DNA from: Tubiluchus corallicola | Taxonomy: Eukaryota > Animalia > Priapulida | DNA length: 64,000 nucleotides | Assembly: GCA_030141605.1 (NCBI GenBank) | Contig: JAQGDQ010000462.1 | Span: 117,640-181,639 of the forward strand | Direction: 5' to 3' | Shown here: positions 540 through 58,824 of the stretch, one piece after another | Position numbering within the stretch: the stretch's first letter is position 1 | Layout: each line of letters starts with the position of its first letter | Position numbers and translations under genes: made by a program | The notes under the pieces: generated by a model | What the model saw: the letters and a program-made list of their open reading frames with translations, nothing else | Told to the model about the DNA's origin: nothing | Database searches by the model: none

Positions 540-1450
540 CACGGTTTCCCCACATTACAAACTACAGATTAAATTACAGTAATTTTTATGTCAAGTACAA
601 AATGCGTTTCATCTCCAATTTTTCCTTCAATGAAATATCTACATATTCGATTGCTAACAGGTATTTTGGGTTACAATGCAGGCCTTTATCTATATACAAG
701 TTGTGAGAACTGATACACAGTTTAACAAAGTTCGATCTTAGTACATGATTATGTACAAAAGAAGATACTTCTCAGTTTCAAATTGTTGCTTAAATTTTTA
801 AATAGGTTCGTAGTTTATTAGCTTCGCCTGTTTTGCCTGTTACTTTAGTAACACATTCCTTCCAGTATATTTTATAACTTGTCCTTTAAAGCATGTAGAT
901 TTGGTTTGATCGACCCCTTACTGTTCCCAGATATGAGAAAAGTCCAAATGACGTAAAATGTTTCTTGCAAATTGTAACCAACATCCCGTATTTTGGTTTA
1001 GAAGAATTAATTTTCTTTTGTAGGTTTGGTATATCAATGTATTTTGTGGAGAGTTCAGTATTTAAGCCAGTATTTTATTGTCCTAGTTATAACGCCCACG
1101 TATAGAGGGAAGCGACCCAACTCTCCCCTGACCGCATGATTAACCAAAAATTTATTGTTGCCAAGAGCCAACTTACATAACTTTACATTAGGTAATTCTA
1201 TGAGTAAATCATCGTATATATTTTCAGTTGTAATTTCATAATTTTTTTTATATTTTTCTACTATTAAACGAGAAGGGGGACCAACACTCTGAAACATTTA
1301 ATGTGATTGGTTTTATTAACTATCAATTAAGTGTGTTAACAATTTGTAGCTTAAATTATCCCCACAGGATTTTCCTTGAATTTGAAAAAATTACTTCCTT
1401 TGTTGCATAATTCTTTTTTTTTGCTTTGGTAAATGACCTGCTTGCATTAA
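540..1450 (-). mobile_element. Decayed non-LTR retrotransposon ORF2 C-terminus (RTEX-like LINE) in intron 2 of the WSC gene
   Basis: Broken frames give CKLALG..NHAVRGELGRFPL..IKYW, then KLRTYLKFKQQFETEKYL, KLCISSHNL and RIC..DETHF. These are characteristic post-RT LINE motifs, with frameshifts. Confidence 0.75.
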
Positions 1451-2019
1451 GTACTATTGAAATCTACCCCATCTTTAGACATCCCTCTGGCTAGGCGCAT
1501 GCATCTAATTAGTTGCACGTGCCATGGGACAAAAGACCAAGTTAAAAGCAGTTGCAATGCTTTAGTGTAATCTTGTCCAGCAGCAATGCTATTCTGATTA
1601 TCTTAACGTACATAGAAGCACAGACTTATTTTAAGCAGGTTGGTGCGCTGATTATATGCATTTCAAGCATTTTGCGTGTTTGTTGAAAAAACTTTAGAAA
1701 ATGTAAACTGTATAGTGACAGCATATACATATATCAGATATCATATCAGCATACAGGATCATATTTTCTGCATAAGTATCCAATGGATTGCAGCTTCGCG
1801 CACATGCAAAAAATGAACATTATGAAGCGAGAGTTTTAAACATCCTCAAAGATACGAGTTAATTTTTCTTATGAAACTCTTTCTGCTCAGCATTTTAAAG
1901 AAACTGACCTGTAAACGTGAACCAAATGCTTGTGCAATTTCATATTTGAAATAAGAACAGAAACTAGTATAAGAATATAAATAGTTCGTCTTACAGAATG
2001 GATTGTGGTATACACTAAC

Positions 2020-2361
2020 CTCGCCGATATAGGCTGCCATACGAGGCTTCAAATTGCGCTCCACACGGTTCTGGATTAATGAGACTACCATATCTTATAC
2101 ATGTTTGATCACAAAAAGCCTGACTACTCACGGTCTCGGGTGAAAAATTACTACTGTTGCTGCATACGCACAGCATCGGACCTCCAATTAGACTAGCATA
2201 ATAGCCCATGTAAAGGTATCTTGGCCCTGGAAATGTGGTAGCTCTTCCAATGCATAACTGTCTACATTCATAAGTTTGGAAGAAACTGCTGGACTTCTGT
2301 ATTTCAAACAAGCTTGAATTGTAGCAGCCAATTGTGCGATAGCTCTCCCCGATAGTAAGTG
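2020..2361 (-). CDS. WSC-domain protein, exon 2 (WSC domain 1)
   Basis: Acceptor tcttt-attttcAG before 2361 and donor GTTAGT after 2020 give a 342-nt phase 1-1 exon. It translates LTIGESYRTIGCYNSS...ECRQLC...YMGYY...LCVCSN...FCDQTC...PCGAQ...SLYRR, which is the WSC pattern (GCY, Cx3C, CxC, Cx3C, CG, xY). Confidence 0.85.
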
Positions 2362-3295
2362 CTGAAAATAAAGACGGTGAAGTTATTGCACACTATTACT
2401 GGCACCTTCATCATCTTACAATTTCTACTTTTCCTGTAAACTGAGACTTTTTTACCAAACAGTGTTCAAATAGCGGTGCCCGATAGGCATTCGTAATTTT
2501 GACAGTAAAATATTGTGGGAGTTGATATGACGAAGTGTACCTGTACCTTTATTCCTGTTTGTTCCAGTACTGGATTAAGCACCCACTACCTGGTGCTCCA
2601 GCTGTTGCTTTTTCCGCGTTTCACCCCCTGCACGTCTCGTGCCTCAAAGCATACGCAGCGTGTGATACAAAATATGCGACATTATGAATAAAACATTAGG
2701 CCTATTATTATTGTTATTATTACCAAAACATTATTATTCCACTTTATTATAATGATTTCAAAATAAAATTTCAGTTAATAAAAACGAAGGTATCGTGCCT
2801 AAAAAGAGCAAAGCATTCACCATTTATAGTACGATTTCGATTTATTTTTTGCGATCTAAGTGTCTCTGAGCGTTGGTGCCTACAGTTGAATTGAACTGGA
2901 CAATTTGATTTCTTTCCTACAGCTCCGTAGACACCTGCTTATGGGTTAATCAACTCAACTTTAAACCTACTAAACGGTAGATAATTTCTCTCAGCAAGCA
3001 TGGATGTTTTTCAACGAAACAGCCAACTATTTCCAAAGAACAGACTTTTCTGGAGGCCTTTTAGCAGTTTGTACAAGTTTGCAGTGTGCACTTGAGTCGG
3101 TGGCAGAAACAGGTTCCAGAAAAGTACTGCTTAGCCTAAACGTACACATATTAGTAGCATCAGCAGTCACAGTCTGGGATTTTCTTATACATCAAGACTA
3201 TGGCTTTTACTAAATTACAGCAAATACACAAGCGCAAAAAATATTTGAGCACGAAGATTACACCCTCATGCGTAATTGCAAGTTTACGTTAGAAT

Positions 3296-3459
3296 GGTGT
3301 CTAAAGGTCTTGGTAATGCCCGAGCTGGGCACTTGGGGATGAGCTCCCAGTGACCTACAAAGTGGCTCCAAAAGGCTTGTGCAACTCTACCACCTCTGCC
3401 AGACAAACTCCTACGCTCTGCCTCCTCGTGGCGACACTGGTTTTACTAAATGAGCTAGG
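3296..3459 (+). ncRNA. HDV-like self-cleaving ribozyme (predicted)
   Basis: P1 GGTGTC (3296-3301) / GACACT (3433-3438) with G1.U wobble. P2 CCTACGCTCT (3410-3419) / ATGAGCTAGG (3450-3459). P3 GCC (3420-22) / GGC (3430-32). L3 TCCTCGT. P1.1 GG (3439-40). J4/2 CTAA with candidate catalytic C3446. Confidence 0.7.
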
Positions 3460-3660
3460 TGTGAAAGCGAGCTATTGGCGCTATAACCGATAAAAATGCT
3501 TGCGGTATGCCCACACTGTATCTCGACACTAGGCGGAGGAGCTGCACAAGCAGCCAACGGCTAGAGGGCGGAGGAGGTCAAGTGACCCAACGGGATATAT
3601 GGATCTCCATATACCTTGCCCAAGCGTGCGCCCTGGAGAGGCCACTTCAGTGACAGAAAC
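3296..3660 (+). mobile_element. Retrotransposon 5'-UTR-like segment (RTE-type) headed by the ribozyme
   Basis: A GC-richer, hairpin-rich block starts at the predicted cleavage G within AT-rich intron sequence. HDV-like ribozymes are known at the 5' ends of RTE/R2/L1Tc elements. No ORF or TSD seen. Confidence 0.5.
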
Positions 3661-4027
3661 AACGTTTCACAGATTTATTTATACTGTACAAGCCTGGCTC
3701 ACTAGAAAGCAAGCTTTAAAATTGTGATGCCTAGTGATACACAGTTCCAGTAAGCCTTTATTTCTTATCACCGTGACTTTGCTTTTCAATATTTTCATAA
3801 TGCAAAAATAGGAGCACTATAGAGAACAGTGTCCTTTGTCACCAGTTTTAGAGTTTCGATTTTTTATCGTTTGATTTAATACATTTAAAATTTTAAACGT
3901 CTTTTTGCTAAACTGTCCAAATTAAATCTGATCAAAGTTTACAACGGTTAGAAACCAAGTTAAGTTTTTCAGAAAGAAACAGTGATGACATCTATTAATA
4001 ATTATTATAAATAATAGCTAGCCTTAC

Positions 4028-4399: not shown

Positions 4400-5435
4400 A
4401 TCCTTTTCTGTGTTCATTTGTACGTTTGCTTATCTGTCTGTGCGTCTATTTGATTCTGTGTTTGTTTGTGTGTTAGTTTGTCTGTCTGTACGTCTATTTG
4501 ATTCTGTGTTTATTTGTGCGTTTGCTCGTCTGTCTGTACATCAATTTGATTGTGTGTTTATTTGTGCGTTTGCTCGTCTGTCTGTACGTCTATTTGATCC
4601 TGTGTTTATTTGTACGTTTGCTCGTCTGTCTGTACATCTATTTGATTCTGTGTTTATTTGTGCGTTTGCTCGTCTGTCTGTACGTCTATTTGATCCTGTG
4701 TTTATTTGTGCGTTTGCTCGTCTGTCTGTACGTCTATTTGATCCTGTGTTTATTTGTACGTTTGCTCGTCTGTCTGTACATCTATTTGATTCTGTGTTTA
4801 TTTGTACGTTTGCTCGTCTGTCTGTACATCTATTTGATTCTGTGTTTATTTGTACGTTTGCTCGTCTGTCTGTACATCTATTTGATTCTGTGTTTATTTG
4901 TACGTTTGCTCGTCTGCCTGTACATCTATTTGATTCTGTGTTCATTTGTGCGTTTGCTCGTCTGTCTGTACATCTATTTGATTCTGTGTTCATTTGTGCG
5001 TTTGCTCGTCTGTCTGTACATCTATTTGATTCTGTGTTTATTTGTGCGTTTGCTCGTCTGTCTGTACATCTATTTGATTCTGTACTTATTCGTACGTTTG
5101 CTCGTCTGTCTGTACCACTATTTGATTCTGTGTTTATTTGTGCGTTTGCTCGTCTGTCTGTACATCTATTTGATTCTGTGTTCATTTGTGCGTTTGCTTG
5201 TCTGTCTGTACATCTATTTGATTCTGTGTTTATTTGTGCGTTTGCTCGCCTGTCTGTACATCTATTTGATTCTGTGTTTATTTGTGCGTTTGCTCGTCTG
5301 TCTGTACATCTATTTGATTCTGTACTTATTCGTACGTTTGCTAGCCTGTCTGTACATCTATTTGATTCTGTACTTATTCGTACGTTTGCTCGTCTGTCTG
5401 TACATCTATTTGATTCTGTACTTATTCGTTTGCTT
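4400..5435. repeat. 48-bp minisatellite (~21 copies) built of 4-bp TTTG/TCTG-like subunits
   Basis: Unit tttgattctgtgtttatttgtgcgtttgctcgtctgtctgtacatcta, giving 16-aa periodicity in the overlapping ORFs. Confidence 0.95.
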
Positions 5436-8560: not shown

Positions 8561-8779
8561 CACGATTCACCTGCGGCAAGGAAGCCAAGGTGAATTGACT
8601 TACGTATGGTTTGATAAGTAACCTAGTCAAAATATTTTTAGCTGCTGAGCTGACATGAAAGACACAAAATGTTTACTGAGCGTTATGGCAGCAGGAAAAA
8701 TTCTTGTTTTTTGTTTACTGTCGCCCCAAAGCATGGTGTGCATGTTGAGCTAATTTTCAAGTCTGCTGATGCCCGATTA

Positions 8780-10800
8780 GAAGCTGGCAAATATGGAATG
8801 GCGTGTGAAGAGGAAGAGATTGTAGTTACGCCTGGTGGTTTAATGAGTGTTACGCAAACACAGGGTACCGGTCCTGGAGCCTTCCCTAAACCGAGTGTGA
8901 TGAAGAGAATGTTTCCTGACTTGCTTTCTGTAACTGATGGGATATATCAAACACCTGTGGTATAATCCACCTGTCTCTACTACATTACGTTTTCCCGGAA
9001 TTTTTCCTGGCGATATGAAACACTTATTCTTGCCCAAGCTTCCCAATCCTAAAAGTATTACTCTAGAATCTCTTGTCACGGTAGATGCGGAAGTAGCTAA
9101 AATGCTTTTACTGTTGCAGCAAGCGAAACTTGAGGCTGATGTTCAAACTCAAGATTAGAGCTGGAACTCGAAATGTCTACAAACAGGTTGGTACACAGAG
9201 AAGCTGCCACTCCCTTGAGTGTAGGAGCCTCAGTTCTTCTATTGTGTAAGGGACCTAGTTTGCCTGCGTCAATTCAGAGAGTGAAGCTTGGCAAACACGA
9301 TGAGGATGGCAAAGACGATATGCAGGCTTTCCTGGATTAGTTCCAAACTTGTGCAGCTGCAAATGGCATTGCTAAAGCTCACTGTGTGCTTCATTGGGAC
9401 CCGGTTTCAGTGGGCGGGCAGCAGATGCCCTTCACCAAATATAAGTTGAGCAGTTGCAAAACTATCCTGCCCTTTTGAGCTCTGATCTTTAGCTTGAGCA
9501 TTTTAGGAAAACGCCAAATCTGATAATGAATGCAACCGTCAGTCGCATCTGAGAATGGACCGTGTATTGCTAGACTGGCAAATCTCTATTGGGGCAAATA
9601 CAGTGGACAAGGTCCTTAAAGCTTTCATCGTGGAGCAGTTCTTACTCACATGCAAAGAGAACTAACTATGTATTTACTGCAAGAAAGCGTGGGGCCACAC
9701 AGAGCTTTATCAGAAAAAGCTCACCAGTATGTCACCACTCAGTCAGTCAAAATGACTCATAAACTAACCGTTCAGCATCGTAAGACCAGTCCAGTCAAAA
9801 TTCTAACAAAACTAGTACGAGTGCTGGTGTGAGTGGTAGAAATACGAGAGTAGACTGCTATACATGCTGGAAACTGGGGCATAAAACCAACCAATGTCGT
9901 TCACGTGCCACTATTGAAAACAGACGAAAGGGTTTAGAAACCAAGCAAGATGACTTCAAGTCTAACAGGACTGCTCATATGGGTAAAAGAAAATGGCAGC
10001 CTTCAGTTGATAAAATGCTACTTTGCAATTAACGGTAGGCCTGCGCAATGCCAGCGTGATACTGGGGCGGAGGTTAGTTAATTTAACCCTAAATTTGTAC
10101 TTTTAAAGCAAATTCTTAATCAACCATAGCATCGCGTATGATGTATTCATAATCACGCGTGCGATTATTCTTTATCTGACAATGAAGTCACTGCACCTCA
10201 GTTTCAAGGAATATTGACTGTGTGCGCAGCGCCTGACTTGCTCGTGAATTTTCTGCTAGGCAATAATTTTGAGAAAGTTTTGCATTCCTTCCGTGACAAT
10301 TATATGATGTAAACGTTACACGTGATTTTAGGCAATCTGCAGTGCAAGCGTACTGAGCTATCTTAACAGCAACCCGTTTTTGCTATAACTCGTTCAAAGG
10401 CAGCATAACTTGAAAAAGAACATTCGTGGAAAGTGAGAGTGGATTAGTGGTCGGGCACTCATCCCCTGAAACGCATGCGCATTTGTTGAAAGCGAGTATG
10501 AAAGAGCTTAAGCGGGAACAGCTGCAAGATGCGAGTCAACGAAGCCTGTTGAATAACGCTGTCTCAATTAAACAGGTTAAAGAAGCGGGATCAGGTCATA
10601 TCCTTCATGCAGGTGTACTTTATTACCTGTGCAAGGACAAGAAAGAGTTGCTGGTTCTTGCACGTTCTCGTAGGAAGCAAGTCCTAGCTTTAACCCATGA
10701 CAAACCTATGGCTGGCCACTGAGGCATTAACAGCTAGAGTGATGCAAGAATATATATAGCCACGGGTCAAGGGCAGTGTACGTCATTATTGATCATCGAA
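8780..10800 (+). mobile_element. Decayed Ty3/Gypsy LTR retrotransposon internal region (SCAN-type gag, Gmr1-like order)
   Basis: Gag DDMQAFLD*FQTCAAANG (~9315). SCAN-like IVEQFLTHMQRELTMYL (~9627-9680). CCHC knuckle CYTCWKLGHKTNQC (~9857-9898). Protease RDTGAEVS (~10056). Integrase-type ..RRKQVLALTHDKPMAGH*GI (~10670-10730). Stops and frameshifts present; no LTRs identified. Confidence 0.8.
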
Positions 10801-18258: not shown

Positions 18259-18900
18259 ATGTCAGTTAGAAAACCTTGTCAATCATGTTAGAAAAGTCAA
18301 AATCCTATCAGCCTGCGGGAAAAAGATGATATACAATGCGACCGTTGTGCAAGCTACATCGAGAACTTCAGTATTACCTCTGTAATGTGGAGGAATCTAA
18401 ACAAGTGTATTGACTCATTAACTAAAGAAATAACATGGTTGAGGGCTGGACTAAAGGAACTAAAAGGTAATAATACTGATCTGTCAACAAATATTACAAT
18501 ATTAAATACTGAGATTATACAACTTAAAGATGAAACATTAAACATTAAACCAGCCGAAATCATTGATAAACTTAATGACATAATAAGTACACTGGACAAG
18601 AAAATGAATAATCCCAAGCCAACATATAGAGCAATGGTAGACCTAAGTGCTGGTTCAGCAAACAATACAATTGTTAAGCCAAATCATGTAGCCAGCACAA
18701 AGAATTTATACGAACACAACCGTTCTGCAATAATCGATAACGTTAAAGATCCACACATCGGTAATTTATGTGCCATTATAAAGAAAAAACGCGTGTGAAC
18801 ACTTCCCTGTCGCAAAGTGCGATTTAGCCTTTAGAACTGCGAAAGGCTAGATTCAAATGCAGCTTTGCCATACCGAGACAGCAGATACAATAATAAGCAA
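18259..18900 (+). mobile_element. Decayed LINE ORF1-like fragment (PHD-like Cys pairs plus coiled coil)
   Basis: In frame upstream of ORF 18385: MSVRKPCQSC*...DDIQCDRCASY, then heptad-rich LTKEITWLRAGLKELKGNNTDLSTNITILNTEIIQLK. This resembles CR1/L2-type ORF1 and has an internal stop. Confidence 0.5.
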
Positions 18901-47500: not shown

Positions 47501-48198
47501 GGCACAAGATCTATAATCCTAGATGCAACAACAAGAGCTGTTTCACCTATTATAAACAAAAGTTTTTTTTGACTATTTTTTGTATTTATTTATGCTGGAA
47601 GAAATAATTATTAGTGAAGCCAAAATTGATTAAATTTCAATTTAGTTACATGGATCATACAACACAATGATTTTGAAATAACAGCAGTTGAAACACCAAA
47701 CGGTTTGATAACTCAAAACACAAGAAAGAATAGAATATTGAACAATTTTTTGGAAGCGTTTTCGTTCCCGTGTTTTAGTTGAAGGAACCTAAAAGACATG
47801 AATACTTGAAAACCGAGTTTATGAAAAGTTCTGGAAATTTGCAAACCAGGCCTGTGCACGATCATTACATTTTTGCTTTTTACTTTCAGAACATTTGGGT
47901 TTTTGAGCCAAACGCTGATTACTGGTAAATCTGGACATTTTTTCATTTATAAATCGTGTTTGGAACTTGGCTATTATTTTTCAGTAAAATGTCATTCAAC
48001 CAATCAATAAGATGTACATGCGCAAGCCTTGACAAGTTTATACTGGACAAGATAAAACCAATAAAATTTCTTCAACTCCGTGATTTACAACAATGTCGTA
48101 CCAAGCGTATCGTACGGCGGAGTACAATATAATTTACTGTTTCAATTTTGAATGCCATTTTCAGGTGTGAATGACTTAATACAAGTATAATTGCTGGA

Positions 48199-49383
48199 AT
48201 GTCGATCGTCGACTGTGATCAATATTCTCTATCAAGTATTTTTGAAATTAATCTGAAAGAGGCTAAACATTTGTTGCTTTGTGCATTTATATTTATTTCG
48301 TGTTATTTAATAATAAGCCATTTCGCTCAACAAAATTCAGTGCAACATTTACAACACAAGCAAATGTTGGATTCAATTCACGTGGCACTGACAGCTTGTG
48401 GTAATGAGACACGTGTTCTGGAGCAATTTTTGGTTGTGGCAAAATCCTCACTCATGATGACAACACCTTTTATTAACTTTCACATTTTTGTTGATAACGA
48501 AAATACAAGAAAATATGCAATCAAAACGCTAAGTGAAATGAAGAAATCAAAATCATTTAGAGCAAACTTTTACCGTCCCTGGTATCCTCCAGTTGAAAAT
48601 TACACCAAGTGGCTGAACCCGGGAAAGAAACGTTGCAATACAGCATGGCTGTTCCTACCAGATGTTTTATCAAACGTGGACAAGATTTTGGCGATTGATT
48701 TAGACGTTATTGTGTTGAAGCCTCTAGAAGTATTGTGGCGCCACTTTGAAAATATGTACGAATCTCAGATGATGGGTCTTGCGTTTGATTTTTCTGGGCC
48801 ACATAATTCTCGTCTGCGTGACCGTTATCATAATCATGGCTATCATCAACAAACAAAGCCAGAATCATTTCTTAGGCCATTTAAGGGTTTAAATTCTGGA
48901 GTAGTTTTACTGGACTTGAACAAAATACGAAAGTCAAATTGGAAAACAGAAATAACACGAATATTTAAAATTACTAGTGAATGCAGACCAGGTAAAAGAA
49001 GTTTTCCAGCCTGTTTGATTCCCCAAAATACTTGCAATGTCTATTTTCACGAGAATCCGGAGAGGCTGTACTTTCTTCCTTGCCACTGGAACTTCTGGTG
49101 GAGGCAGGGTGTCTCTGAAGAAGTGTGTAAGACTGCTCAAATGCATGGAGTAGGAATTTTACACGGAGCTGGTGGCACGTTCTACAAAACAGAAAGAAAA
49201 TGTTCTGCTTTTTTAAATGTATTTAATCTTTTTAAATCTGTGTATTTAAATGAAACAAGAGATTCATTTATTGAAAAGCTGAAGAAATTTCGCAATCAAA
49301 CTTTGTTTCACCTCAAAGATTCTACGCTGCTTAAGTGTACATTTATTGTAGACTCTATTCTGATGTCTCTATATGGCATATAA
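48199..49383 (+). CDS. Glucoside xylosyltransferase-like protein (GT8 family, GXYLT1/2-like), type II membrane, single-exon CDS
   Basis: 394-aa ORF with N-terminal TM (LLLCAFIFISCYLII), IHVALTACG, FHIFVD, LFLPDVL..VDKILAIDLDVI (DxD at 48697-48705), GLNSGVVLLDL, NVYFHENPERLYFLPCHWN and GILHG. Splice acceptor ttttcAG at 48164 and an in-frame TGA at 48172 lie upstream of the ATG. Confidence 0.92.
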   Translation: MSIVDCDQYSLSSIFEINLKEAKHLLLCAFIFISCYLIISHFAQQNSVQHLQHKQMLDSIHVALTACGNETRVLEQFLVVAKSSLMMTTPFINFHIFVDNENTRKYAIKTLSEMKKSKSFRANFYRPWYPPVENYTKWLNPGKKRCNTAWLFLPDVLSNVDKILAIDLDVIVLKPLEVLWRHFENMYESQMMGLAFDFSGPHNSRLRDRYHNHGYHQQTKPESFLRPFKGLNSGVVLLDLNKIRKSNWKTEITRIFKITSECRPGKRSFPACLIPQNTCNVYFHENPERLYFLPCHWNFWWRQGVSEEVCKTAQMHGVGILHGAGGTFYKTERKCSAFLNVFNLFKSVYLNETRDSFIEKLKKFRNQTLFHLKDSTLLKCTFIVDSILMSLYGI

Positions 49384-58108: not shown

Positions 58109-58474
58109 TTACGATGTTCCACTCACAGAACGTTTATCTATTTCAATTTGTTCGCATCTTTGCTGATAATATACCTCATCCGAACAACATTTTTTGTACT
58201 TTTCTTCAGCTTCCGCGTACTTCTTTTCGAACCCTGACAGTGGTTTGCCTGGTCCAAGTTGAATTTTATCGGCCCCCGAGCATATAAAGCATTTCTTTTG
58301 ATGTTCCTTCATAGTAGGTGAGCCTTCCTTGCATCGTCCCAGAGCACCATCGGTATGCAGGTACGTCCCAAAGTTATCATCAGTTCTGCCTCTGAGAGAA
58401 ATGCACTCGTTTGAACTATCGGACAGCATAACAAGAACGCAGACTACAAAAAGCAACTTTACAAAAAATGGCAT
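58109..58474 (-). CDS. Small secreted cysteine-rich protein (121 aa if unspliced; may be a first coding exon)
   Basis: Acceptor ttttctttatcatcttacAG abuts the ATG. Signal peptide MPFFVKLLFVVCVLVMLSDSS. Cys at 24, 48, 62, 65, 96, 97 and 107, with KR at 114-115. The ORF is non-repetitive. Consensus donors GTGAGT (58126) and GTAAGT (58112) lie at its end. Confidence 0.7.
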   Translation of the reverse strand: MPFFVKLLFVVCVLVMLSDSSNECISLRGRTDDNFGTYLHTDGALGRCKEGSPTMKEHQKKCFICSGADKIQLGPGKPLSGFEKKYAEAEEKYKKCCSDEVYYQQRCEQIEIDKRSVSGTS

Positions 58475-58824
58475 CTGTAAGATGATAAAGAAAATAATCT
58501 CTGATGTCTAAAAGATTTCCTACAGCTTATGCAAGCCCATAGTTGAAAAGCCCAGGTTGAAAAGATTTCGGCTAAAGATCATATTTACCCTATTTATGTA
58601 GCTGTCTGCCCAGTAAAGTGGATCAGATAAAATAGCCACCCACTTGCGCCTCTGCCGTCCACTGTACTGTCACTTCAACAACACGCAAATACTGCTGTTG
58701 TGTCAGGATCCCAGTTTTCTCTAGTGAAACAATAGGAACGTGTTTCTAGTTGTGACAAGTAACTGTTGCCATGGCGTTTGTTATCCAAAACAGAAGTTTA
58801 GTGATAAACGGAATCATAAAGGTG

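What the first reader, a model, noticed from the sequence alone, without database searches (positions are those of the whole stretch)
3296..3459. P4-less HDV-like ribozyme with long J1/2 inside intron 1 of the WSC gene
Seen: every element of the HDV nested double pseudoknot appears in the right order. P1 is GGTGTC/GACACT (6 bp, G1.U wobble, U at -1). J1/2 is ~108 nt and has its own hairpin (GGCACTTGGGGA 3328-39 / TCCCAGTGACC 3345-55). P2 is CCTACGCTCT/ATGAGCTAGG with two bulges. GCC-TCCTCGT-GGC closely matches the HDV genomic P3/L3 (GCC-UCCUCGCU-GGC). GG is positioned for P1.1, and only TTTTA precedes CTAA, so P4 is absent. The predicted cleavage G coincides with the AT-to-GC compositional boundary. 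Known: HDV-like ribozymes process the 5' ends of RTE/R2-type retrotransposon RNAs. Inference: this is the 5' head of an RTE-like or non-autonomous retroelement with an unusually minimal core. It is antisense to the host gene, so it would not cut the WSC pre-mRNA but could define the 5' end of an antisense RNA.
Basis: partly seen in the sequence, partly recalled or inferred. Interest (0 to 1): 0.78.

Follow-up and report, generated by a model that had tools for sequence, protein, structure and literature searches.

The report
Ribozyme-headed jumping-gene fragment in intron
A roughly 370-base repeat inserted backwards in an intron of an animal gene begins with a stripped-down hepatitis-delta-type RNA fold that is predicted to cut itself and likely set the start of a retrotransposon's RNA; this build is already known from moths, abalone and phages, so the copy is likely an ordinary passenger.

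Summary
All claimed helices sit at the stated coordinates, and a descriptor found no full match in 600 shuffled windows. The best Rfam hit is the HDV-like drz-agam-1, below its cut-off. A model of phage minimal ribozymes finds only this site (partly circular).

Laid sequencing contigs show a repeat. Depth steps up at 3294-3296; other copies start 1-2 bases before the predicted cut G3296, one with a different flank; a homologous site without the insert exists (likely a paralog). The head has roughly 6-30 copies; the body 3498-3652 is shared with a family about 1000-fold deeper. A short stretch resembles a published RTE 5' UTR. No ORF, 3' tail or secure target-site duplication was found, so RTE origin is likely, not shown.

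The core is not unusual: silkmoth R2 ribozymes pair a long J1/2 with no P4, and an abalone ribozyme has 5 nt in place of P4. The element is antisense to a WSC-like gene; nothing supports an antisense RNA. Cleavage and covariation are untested. The scan noted similar elements in other genomes. New member of a known kind; low interest.

The parts
3296..3301 (+). P1 5' strand; G3296 is the predicted first base after cleavage
   Evidence: Sequence; contigs of other copies begin at 3294-3295
3302..3409 (+). J1/2, 108 nt, predicted closed multi-helix (P1.2-like) domain with about 5-nt linkers at each side
   Evidence: ViennaRNA: -27.8 kcal/mol as in the window, -33.9 with the two letters that all laid contigs show
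3410..3419 (+). P2 5' strand
   Evidence: aligned to drz-agam-1 P2
3420..3432 (+). P3 / L3 (GCC-TCCTCGT-GGC); C3424 and C3425 predicted to form P1.1
   Evidence: L3 identical to drz-agam-1 consensus
3433..3440 (+). P1 3' strand (3433-3438) and GG of P1.1 (3439-3440)
3441..3449 (+). 5-nt linker in place of P4, then J4/2 CTAA with predicted catalytic C3446
   Evidence: same position in phage minimal ribozymes
3450..3459 (+). P2 3' strand, one base bulged after the first pair
3460..3497 (+). Spacer; many contigs of the high-copy family carry other sequence before 3498
   Evidence: Loose ends before 3498 in three runs
3498..3652 (+). Body shared with a very high-copy repeat family; that family has extra sequence between about 3593 and 3601 and another continuation after 3652
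   Evidence: Depth about 2,800-3,700 times the flank in bin 3539-3619 (summed over overlapping contigs) and loose ends
3605..3627 (+). Stretch resembling the 5' UTR of RTE-11_AMi (19 of 24 columns, aligned by eye)
   Evidence: Supplement of PMC5786205
3653..3668 (+). Uncertain 3' end of the insert (3661-3668); no poly-A or microsatellite tail; ACGTT at 3662-3666 repeats 3286-3290
2362..4027 (-). Host intron: first coding intron of a predicted secreted WSC-like gene
   Evidence: GT/AG and in-phase join; Atlas

Best explanation
This is a young, multi-copy insertion of about 370 bases whose first 164 bases are predicted to fold into a P4-less HDV-like ribozyme, and it is likely a tail-less 5' fragment of an RTE-type non-LTR retrotransposon or of its non-autonomous derivative. 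Shown: the fold's elements, the copy-number step at the predicted cut site, other copies with other flanks, a homologous empty site, antisense orientation. Inferred from the family: the parent is transcribed by read-through from host promoters; P1, P2, P3 and P1.1 form the nested double pseudoknot while the structured J1/2 holds P1 and P2 together; C3446 acts as general acid with a Mg2+ ion and cuts between U3295 and G3296; the released RNA is reverse-transcribed by an RTE protein, so full-length copies start at G3296. This copy lacks a 3' tail and ORF, lies on the strand that the host pre-mRNA does not carry, and is likely an inert passenger.
For: Fold beyond chance. Best Rfam match of 4227 families is the HDV-like drz-agam-1: 24.4 bits, E 0.094 in 4 kb and 0.01 in 431 nt, with the same bulge after the first P2 pair. 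Model from 10 phage loci: 33 bits, E 3.4e-6, next best of 14 matches 13.5 bits. Depth of single contigs over the core against the flank: 144/24.9, 3619/394, 59.6/9.5 (one sample) and 536/18.2 (second sample). Five listed contigs from other copies start at 3294 or 3295; one 561-nt contig has a different upstream flank whose last 30 letters hold partial repeats of the element's first bases. Joints 3284->3693 (X4, 27 letters between that resemble 3661-3692) and 3231->3693 (X2) show a homologous site without the insert. Resemblance to an RTE 5' UTR at 3605-3627, extending into the high-copy family's loose end before 3601. RTE is among the clades with 5' HDV-like ribozymes and makes non-autonomous derivatives (PMC5786205; PMC6765202). 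A paired J1/2 domain activates such ribozymes and 6-bp P1 is normal (PMC4908430).
Against: No cleavage data. The Rfam score is 12.6 bits under the gathering cut-off and nothing in the window reaches a cut-off. No compensatory change was seen: common differences between copies fall only in J1/2 (4 listed, 1 more read from a loose end; chance of all five missing the core is about 0.12), and one diverged contig has G3415A and C3418T in P2 with no listed compensation. The nested minimum-energy fold pairs 3298-3302 with 3401-3405 in place of P1 (probability 0.95 for the window's letters; pseudoknots are not modelled). The RTE resemblance is short, by eye, and was found by searching for words from this stretch. 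No RT ORF, no 3' tail; the 5-nt direct repeat is not beyond chance (37% for two random 25-mers) and a contig break at 3639 suggests other loci share sequence to about 3668 (my inference). Copies seem to share U at -1, which a cut before G3296 does not explain. A 5-nt linker is the short extreme: 1 of 23 phage loci with a 6-bp P1. The tool warns that contig depth is no copy number.
Confidence: 0.7

Rival explanations
1. The ribozyme is real but heads another kind of element (Ingi/Vingi, R4, LOA, another LINE clade, or a DNA-level repeat), and the RTE likeness is coincidence or a captured UTR piece.
For: Six LINE clades carry 5' ribozymes and RTE-like UTR pieces also occur in an Ingi and an R4 element (PMC5786205). 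No ORF or tail was seen. An unchecked scan note reports HDV-like motifs in a tandem array elsewhere in this genome.
Against: The only sequence likeness found is to RTE UTRs and the best Rfam family is drz-agam-1; 5'-aligned copies with varied flanks fit reverse transcription.
Confidence: 0.15
2. The ~370-base unit is itself a complete, still-mobile non-autonomous element with a 5-base target-site duplication, not a truncated relic.
For: ACGTT flanks both ends; copies are mostly 95-100% alike; depth over the core differs between the two samples, about 6-9 against about 29 times the flank.
Against: No tail for target-primed reverse transcription; the repeat is not beyond chance; other loci seem to share sequence past the repeat, to about 3668; the 3' ends of other copies were not seen.
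Confidence: 0.1
3. This copy has been adopted by the host and cuts an antisense transcript that regulates the WSC-like gene.
For: The core is intact and both samples carry the filled junction contig.
Against: The core is as intact in the other copies, as youth alone predicts; the homologous site lacks it; the window's copy has two private changes that weaken J1/2 by about 6 kcal/mol.
Confidence: 0.03
4. The pattern is a chance likeness in a GC-richer repeat.
For: Below Rfam cut-off; competing fold predicted.
Against: 0 of 600 window shuffles and 0 of 30,000 local shuffles; P1 start coincides with an independently found repeat boundary.
Confidence: 0.02

Closest known systems
Silkmoth R2 ribozymes (Bombyx mori, Samia cynthia and three more; PMC3774820, passages and one section read)
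   Same: Long J1/2 and no P4 at the 5' end of a non-LTR element; catalytic C after a short linker; C-to-U abolished cleavage there.
   Different: R2 is 28S-site-specific and takes its P1 5' strand from rDNA; J1/2 is 216-498 nt. Here the site is an intron, P1 is the element's own and J1/2 is 108 nt.
Abalone (Haliotis discus) HDV-like ribozyme with 5 nt in place of P4 (Webb and Luptak 2011; known here only through PMC3774820)
   Same: Invertebrate genomic ribozyme with a 5-nt replacement of P4.
   Different: Its sequence, J1/2 and element context could not be seen.
drz-agam-1 (Rfam RF01787) and the RTE-associated HDV-like ribozymes (Ruminski et al. 2011; not held, known through PMC5786205 and PMC6765202)
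   Same: Same L3, CUAA, bulge after the first P2 pair; ribozyme at the 5' end of a dispersed repeat.
   Different: The Rfam model has a short J1/2 and about 31 more positions in the P4 region; score 24.4 against cut-off 37.
drz-Agam-2-1 (PMC4908430, abstract and Results read)
   Same: Large paired J1/2 domain with short linkers and an extended P2.
   Different: Its activity is measured; it was not among the Rfam matches here.
Minimal HDV-like and theta ribozymes of phages (PMC10879173, passages read)
   Same: P4-less core with 6-bp P1, G.U first pair (21 of 23), U at -1 (19 of 23), GG, 5-7 nt, CUAA.
   Different: J1/2 is a few bases; they follow tRNAs in phage genomes. No tRNA in this window.
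Bipartite non-autonomous RTE elements (RTE-N, Bov-A; PMC5786205, three of five parts and supplement passages read)
   Same: Short, ORF-less repeat keeping the 5' end of a likely RTE parent.
   Different: No RTE 3' part or microsatellite tail is seen in this copy.

Membership tests
HDV-like ribozymes | P1 of 6-7 bp starting at G with G.U or G-C first pair | tested here: met
   6 bp, G3296.U3438; 6-7 bp is typical
HDV-like ribozymes | P2, 3-bp P3, 7-8 nt L3 in nested order | tested here: met
HDV-like ribozymes | P1.1 (L3 CC with GG after P1') | tested here: met
   C3424/C3425 and G3439/G3440 present; pairing inferred
HDV-like ribozymes | Catalytic C in J4/2 followed by conserved A | tested here: met
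   C3446 in CTAA; role from PMC13635239
HDV-like ribozymes | Score at a curated Rfam family's gathering threshold | tested here: not met
   drz-agam-1 24.4 of 37 bits; the model lacks a long J1/2 and has P4
HDV-like ribozymes | Covariation of P1/P2/P3 among copies | tested here: inconclusive
   Core unchanged in the common copies; one diverged contig has two uncompensated P2 changes
HDV-like ribozymes | Mg2+-dependent self-cleavage lost on C-to-U | not testable with these tools
   Bench test
RTE-clade retrotransposon or derivative | Dispersed copies whose 5' end is the ribozyme cut site | tested here: met
   Other copies start at 3294-3295; one has a different flank
RTE-clade retrotransposon or derivative | 5' UTR similarity to known RTEs | tested here: inconclusive
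   19 of 24 columns by eye to RTE-11_AMi; no repeat library to score against
RTE-clade retrotransposon or derivative | APE + RT ORF in a full-length relative | not testable with these tools
   No genome held; none in this copy
RTE-clade retrotransposon or derivative | 3' UTR piece with short tandem or poly-A tail | tested here: not met
   None at 3653-3670
RTE-clade retrotransposon or derivative | Target-site duplication | tested here: inconclusive
   5-nt repeat only, not beyond chance
Theta ribozymes | Directly downstream of a tRNA in a phage genome | tested here: not met
   No tRNA; spliced animal-type gene context
R2 ribozymes | Insertion in 28S rDNA | tested here: not met
   No rRNA match in the window
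tRNA-derived SINE | tRNA-like head with A and B boxes | tested here: not met
   No tRNA; no A or B box pattern inside the element

The most novel reading that the evidence does not exclude
A currently spreading, tail-less mini-element made only of a minimal ribozyme and a piece of RTE 5' UTR, living beside a thousand-fold more abundant sister family that shares the body but has swapped the head; its J1/2 holds two GUCU words that compete for one AGAC, a possible folding switch that gates cleavage. This would be a natural test of whether ribozyme heads limit or aid retroposon amplification.
Probability: 0.1. Interest if true: 0.5.

Novelty: new member of a known kind. Interest (0 to 1): 0.25.

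Why it matters
It adds one young, intact example of a retroelement-type ribozyme with the P4-less, long-J1/2 build in an invertebrate, with genomic evidence that the element starts at the predicted cut. Standard Rfam thresholds miss it, so such heads are under-annotated. It does not change what is known about HDV-like ribozymes, and no effect on the host gene is indicated.

Tried and rejected
No whole genome is held, so copies could not be collected or aligned. No second copy in the window by blastn. Metagenome scan with the 21-base core gave 3 hits, all in GC-rich (62-70%) contigs with no flanking likeness: rejected as chance. Body patterns found nothing in genome contigs or viral contigs, as expected for animal DNA. 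No RNA holder listed and nothing laid from the one guessed RNA run: no evidence either way on expression. Scan look-up by sequence: nothing. Host exon: no Pfam, PDB or homolog hit; the homolog search with the GT8 ORF did not place the organism. A short-J1/2 reading, with P1 at 3398 as the drz-agam-1 alignment suggests, is rejected: the only P1 partner within 400 nt upstream is 3295/3296. A 7-bp P1 starting at U3295 (U.G pair, one G left for P1.1) is not excluded but fits less well with the phage set, where G starts P1 and U sits at -1 (by my search rule G was required). Reading the empty site as an insertion polymorphism is not favoured: two near-identical joints over the exon (depths 157 and 193) add up to the diverged contig's depth (349), close to the filled contig's (394), which points to a paralog with two alleles. 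A first alignment of 16 phage loci was out of register and dropped. The promoter/terminator scan is bacterial and uninformative here. Ruminski 2011 and Webb and Luptak 2011 are not held.

Full report
Observation. All 18 proposed pairs are standard or G.U pairs. A descriptor of the HDV fold that allows J1/2 up to 300 nt and 3-60 nt in the P4 region hits only this site on both strands; 600 dinucleotide shuffles of the window gave 0 full and 2 core-only hits, and 30,000 shuffles of 3296-3661 gave none. I wrote the descriptor after seeing the site, so this bounds chance only roughly. Rfam's best match is the HDV-like drz-agam-1 at 3398-3459, 24.4 bits against a cut-off of 37 (E 0.094 in 4 kb, 0.01 in 431 nt); nothing in the window reaches a cut-off. 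GC rises from 0.385 to 0.515 across 3296.

Comparison set. A scan of viral contigs with the gapped core pattern gave 95 loci. Of 65 distinct viral matches, 26 had a G-initiated 6-bp P1 partner, 20 a 7-bp one and 19 none by my strict rule (the printed count of 27 includes the window). Among 23 with intact P3 and a nearby 6-bp P1, the first pair was G.U in 21, the -1 base U in 19, and the linker 5 nt in 1, 6 in 9, 7 in 13 (the pattern allowed only 3-7). A model built from 10 loci of equal spacing (P2 covaries in them) scores the window's core at 33 bits, E 3.4e-6, next best 13.5 bits of 14 matches. This is partly circular, because the loci were fished with 17 letters of this core. It does show that the window's core has the build of natural minimal ribozymes, with a linker at the short end.

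It is a repeat that starts at the cut site. No genome is held, so I laid contigs of public runs (three runs of one sample, one of a second). Depth is flat up to 3287 and steps up at 3294-3296. Single contigs over the core are 5.8, 9.2, 6.3 and 29 times as deep as the flank contig; the tool warns that this is no true copy number. Five listed contigs from other copies begin at 3294 or 3295, and one 561-nt contig has a different upstream flank whose last 30 letters contain partial repeats of the element's first bases (15 records not shown), as would arise where a reverse transcriptase runs off an RNA end (inference). A P1-compatible hexamer would fall within 2 nt of a given boundary about 0.05% of the time. 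Two joints skip the element (3284->3693 with 27 letters resembling 3661-3692; 3231->3693), so a homologous empty site exists; depths suggest a paralog rather than an allele. Against a clean picture: copies appear to share U at -1; the flanking ACGTT repeat is only 5 nt and not beyond chance; a contig break at 3639 suggests that other loci share sequence to about 3668; there is no tail.

Variation. Common differences among copies lie at 3321, 3329, 3334, 3372 (listed) and 3316 (read from a loose end), all in J1/2; none in the 56 core bases, which chance allows (about 0.12). One shallow, diverged contig has C3404G, G3415A and C3418T among 6 differences, with no listed compensation. So covariation was not obtained. 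At 3321 and 3372 all laid contigs differ from the window; their letters stabilise J1/2 from -27.8 to -33.9 kcal/mol and close it with a helix that leaves about 5 unpaired bases on each side. [quoted passage not shown] In pseudoknot-free folding the P1 5' strand prefers 3401-3405 (probability 0.95 in the window, 0.37-0.58 in the variants); enforcing P1 and P3 costs 3-6 kcal/mol, before adding P2 (-10 as a duplex). The active fold is therefore plausible but not proven, and the window's copy may be slower than its sisters.

What the body is. From about 3498 to 3652 the summed depth is some 2,800-3,700 times the flank; loose ends show that this abundant family has other sequence before 3498, extra sequence between about 3593 and 3601, and another continuation after 3652 (217 loose ends not shown). 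In the supplement of PMC5786205, the RTE-11_AMi 5' UTR matches 3605-3627 at 19 of 24 columns by eye, and the likeness runs on into the loose end before 3601. I found this by searching with words from the stretch, so it is a lead. The same paper says that RTE is one of six LINE clades with 5' ribozymes, that RTE makes ORF-less derivatives keeping the 5' end, and proposes that SINEs take only internal UTR pieces because a ribozyme would cut off their head. No ORF, tRNA or Pol III box is in the element.

Host gene. On the minus strand a signal-peptide-like exon (4088-4028) splices by GT-AG, in phase, to a cysteine-patterned exon starting at 2361. The Atlas puts it nearest WSC clusters (0.92, recognition 2214 below the 2300 mark); Pfam, PDB and homolog searches were blank. 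The ribozyme is on the plus strand, the minus strand has no descriptor hit, so the pre-mRNA would not be cut. No RNA holder was listed, which says nothing on expression.

Mechanism. Shown: sequence elements, repeat boundary, empty site, orientation. From family knowledge: C75-equivalent general acid and a divalent ion (PMC13635239, passages); release of promoterless retroelement RNA from host co-transcripts (PMC6765202, passages). Inferred: the parent was cut between U3295 and G3296 and copied by an RTE protein; this copy lost, or never received, the 3' part and is a passenger.

Novelty. The Bombyx mori R2 ribozyme has an exceptionally long J1/2 and no P4; P4 is absent in five silkmoths and C-to-U abolished cleavage in Samia; an abalone ribozyme has 5 nt instead of P4; R2 P1 is typically 6 or 7 bp and P2 mismatches are common (PMC3774820, passages and section 16). 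Minimal P4-less ribozymes are abundant in phages (PMC10879173, passages). Ruminski 2011 and Webb and Luptak 2011 could not be read, and their figures and supplements may hold RTE examples of exactly this build. My six answered paper searches did not show this particular element. Unchecked scan notes describe ribozyme-headed RTE or Vingi mini-elements, some P4-less, in other genomes, and an HDV-like tandem array on another piece of this genome; two of them pointed me to PMC5786205 and PMC4908430; I do not count them as support.

Verdict. Real feature, works like an HDV-like retroelement ribozyme (about 0.85 that the family's common sequence cleaves), likely RTE-derived (overall 0.7), new member of a known kind, interest 0.25.

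Noticed in passing
window 4406-5426: 48-bp tandem array, 21.3 copies, 93% matches, starting about 320 bases upstream of the host gene's predicted ATG; three long open frames cross it.
   Followed up: no
window 2000-2560: Laid contigs show a second, strongly diverged version of the WSC-like exon region (45 differences and 8 gaps in 357 letters, depth like a single-copy locus): likely a paralog.
   Followed up: partly
window 3498-3652: A repeat family about a thousand-fold deeper than the flank shares this body but has other sequence before 3498, between about 3593 and 3601, and after 3652. Its head is unknown.
   Followed up: partly
window 48175-49383 (+): 402-aa uninterrupted frame with Glyco_transf_8, E 7e-10: a single-exon glycosyltransferase or retrocopy.
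   Followed up: partly
window 58109-58507 (-): 132-aa frame with a signal-peptide-like start and several cysteines; no Pfam match.
   Followed up: no
window about 1050-1200 (-), 8650-10720 (+), 18292-18798 (+): Frames that look, from recall only, like decayed LINE, LTR-integrase and coiled-coil ORF1 pieces; no significant Pfam match for the three tested.
   Followed up: no
L018, L023, L026, L027, L048, L056, L073: Minimal HDV-like motifs occur on viral contigs whose names carry the giant-virus label GVMAG, several per contig, some after tRNA-like ends. Could be phage contamination of those bins; not checked.
   Followed up: no
L019, L065, L066: One viral contig carries three different minimal HDV-like motifs within about 3 kb.
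   Followed up: no
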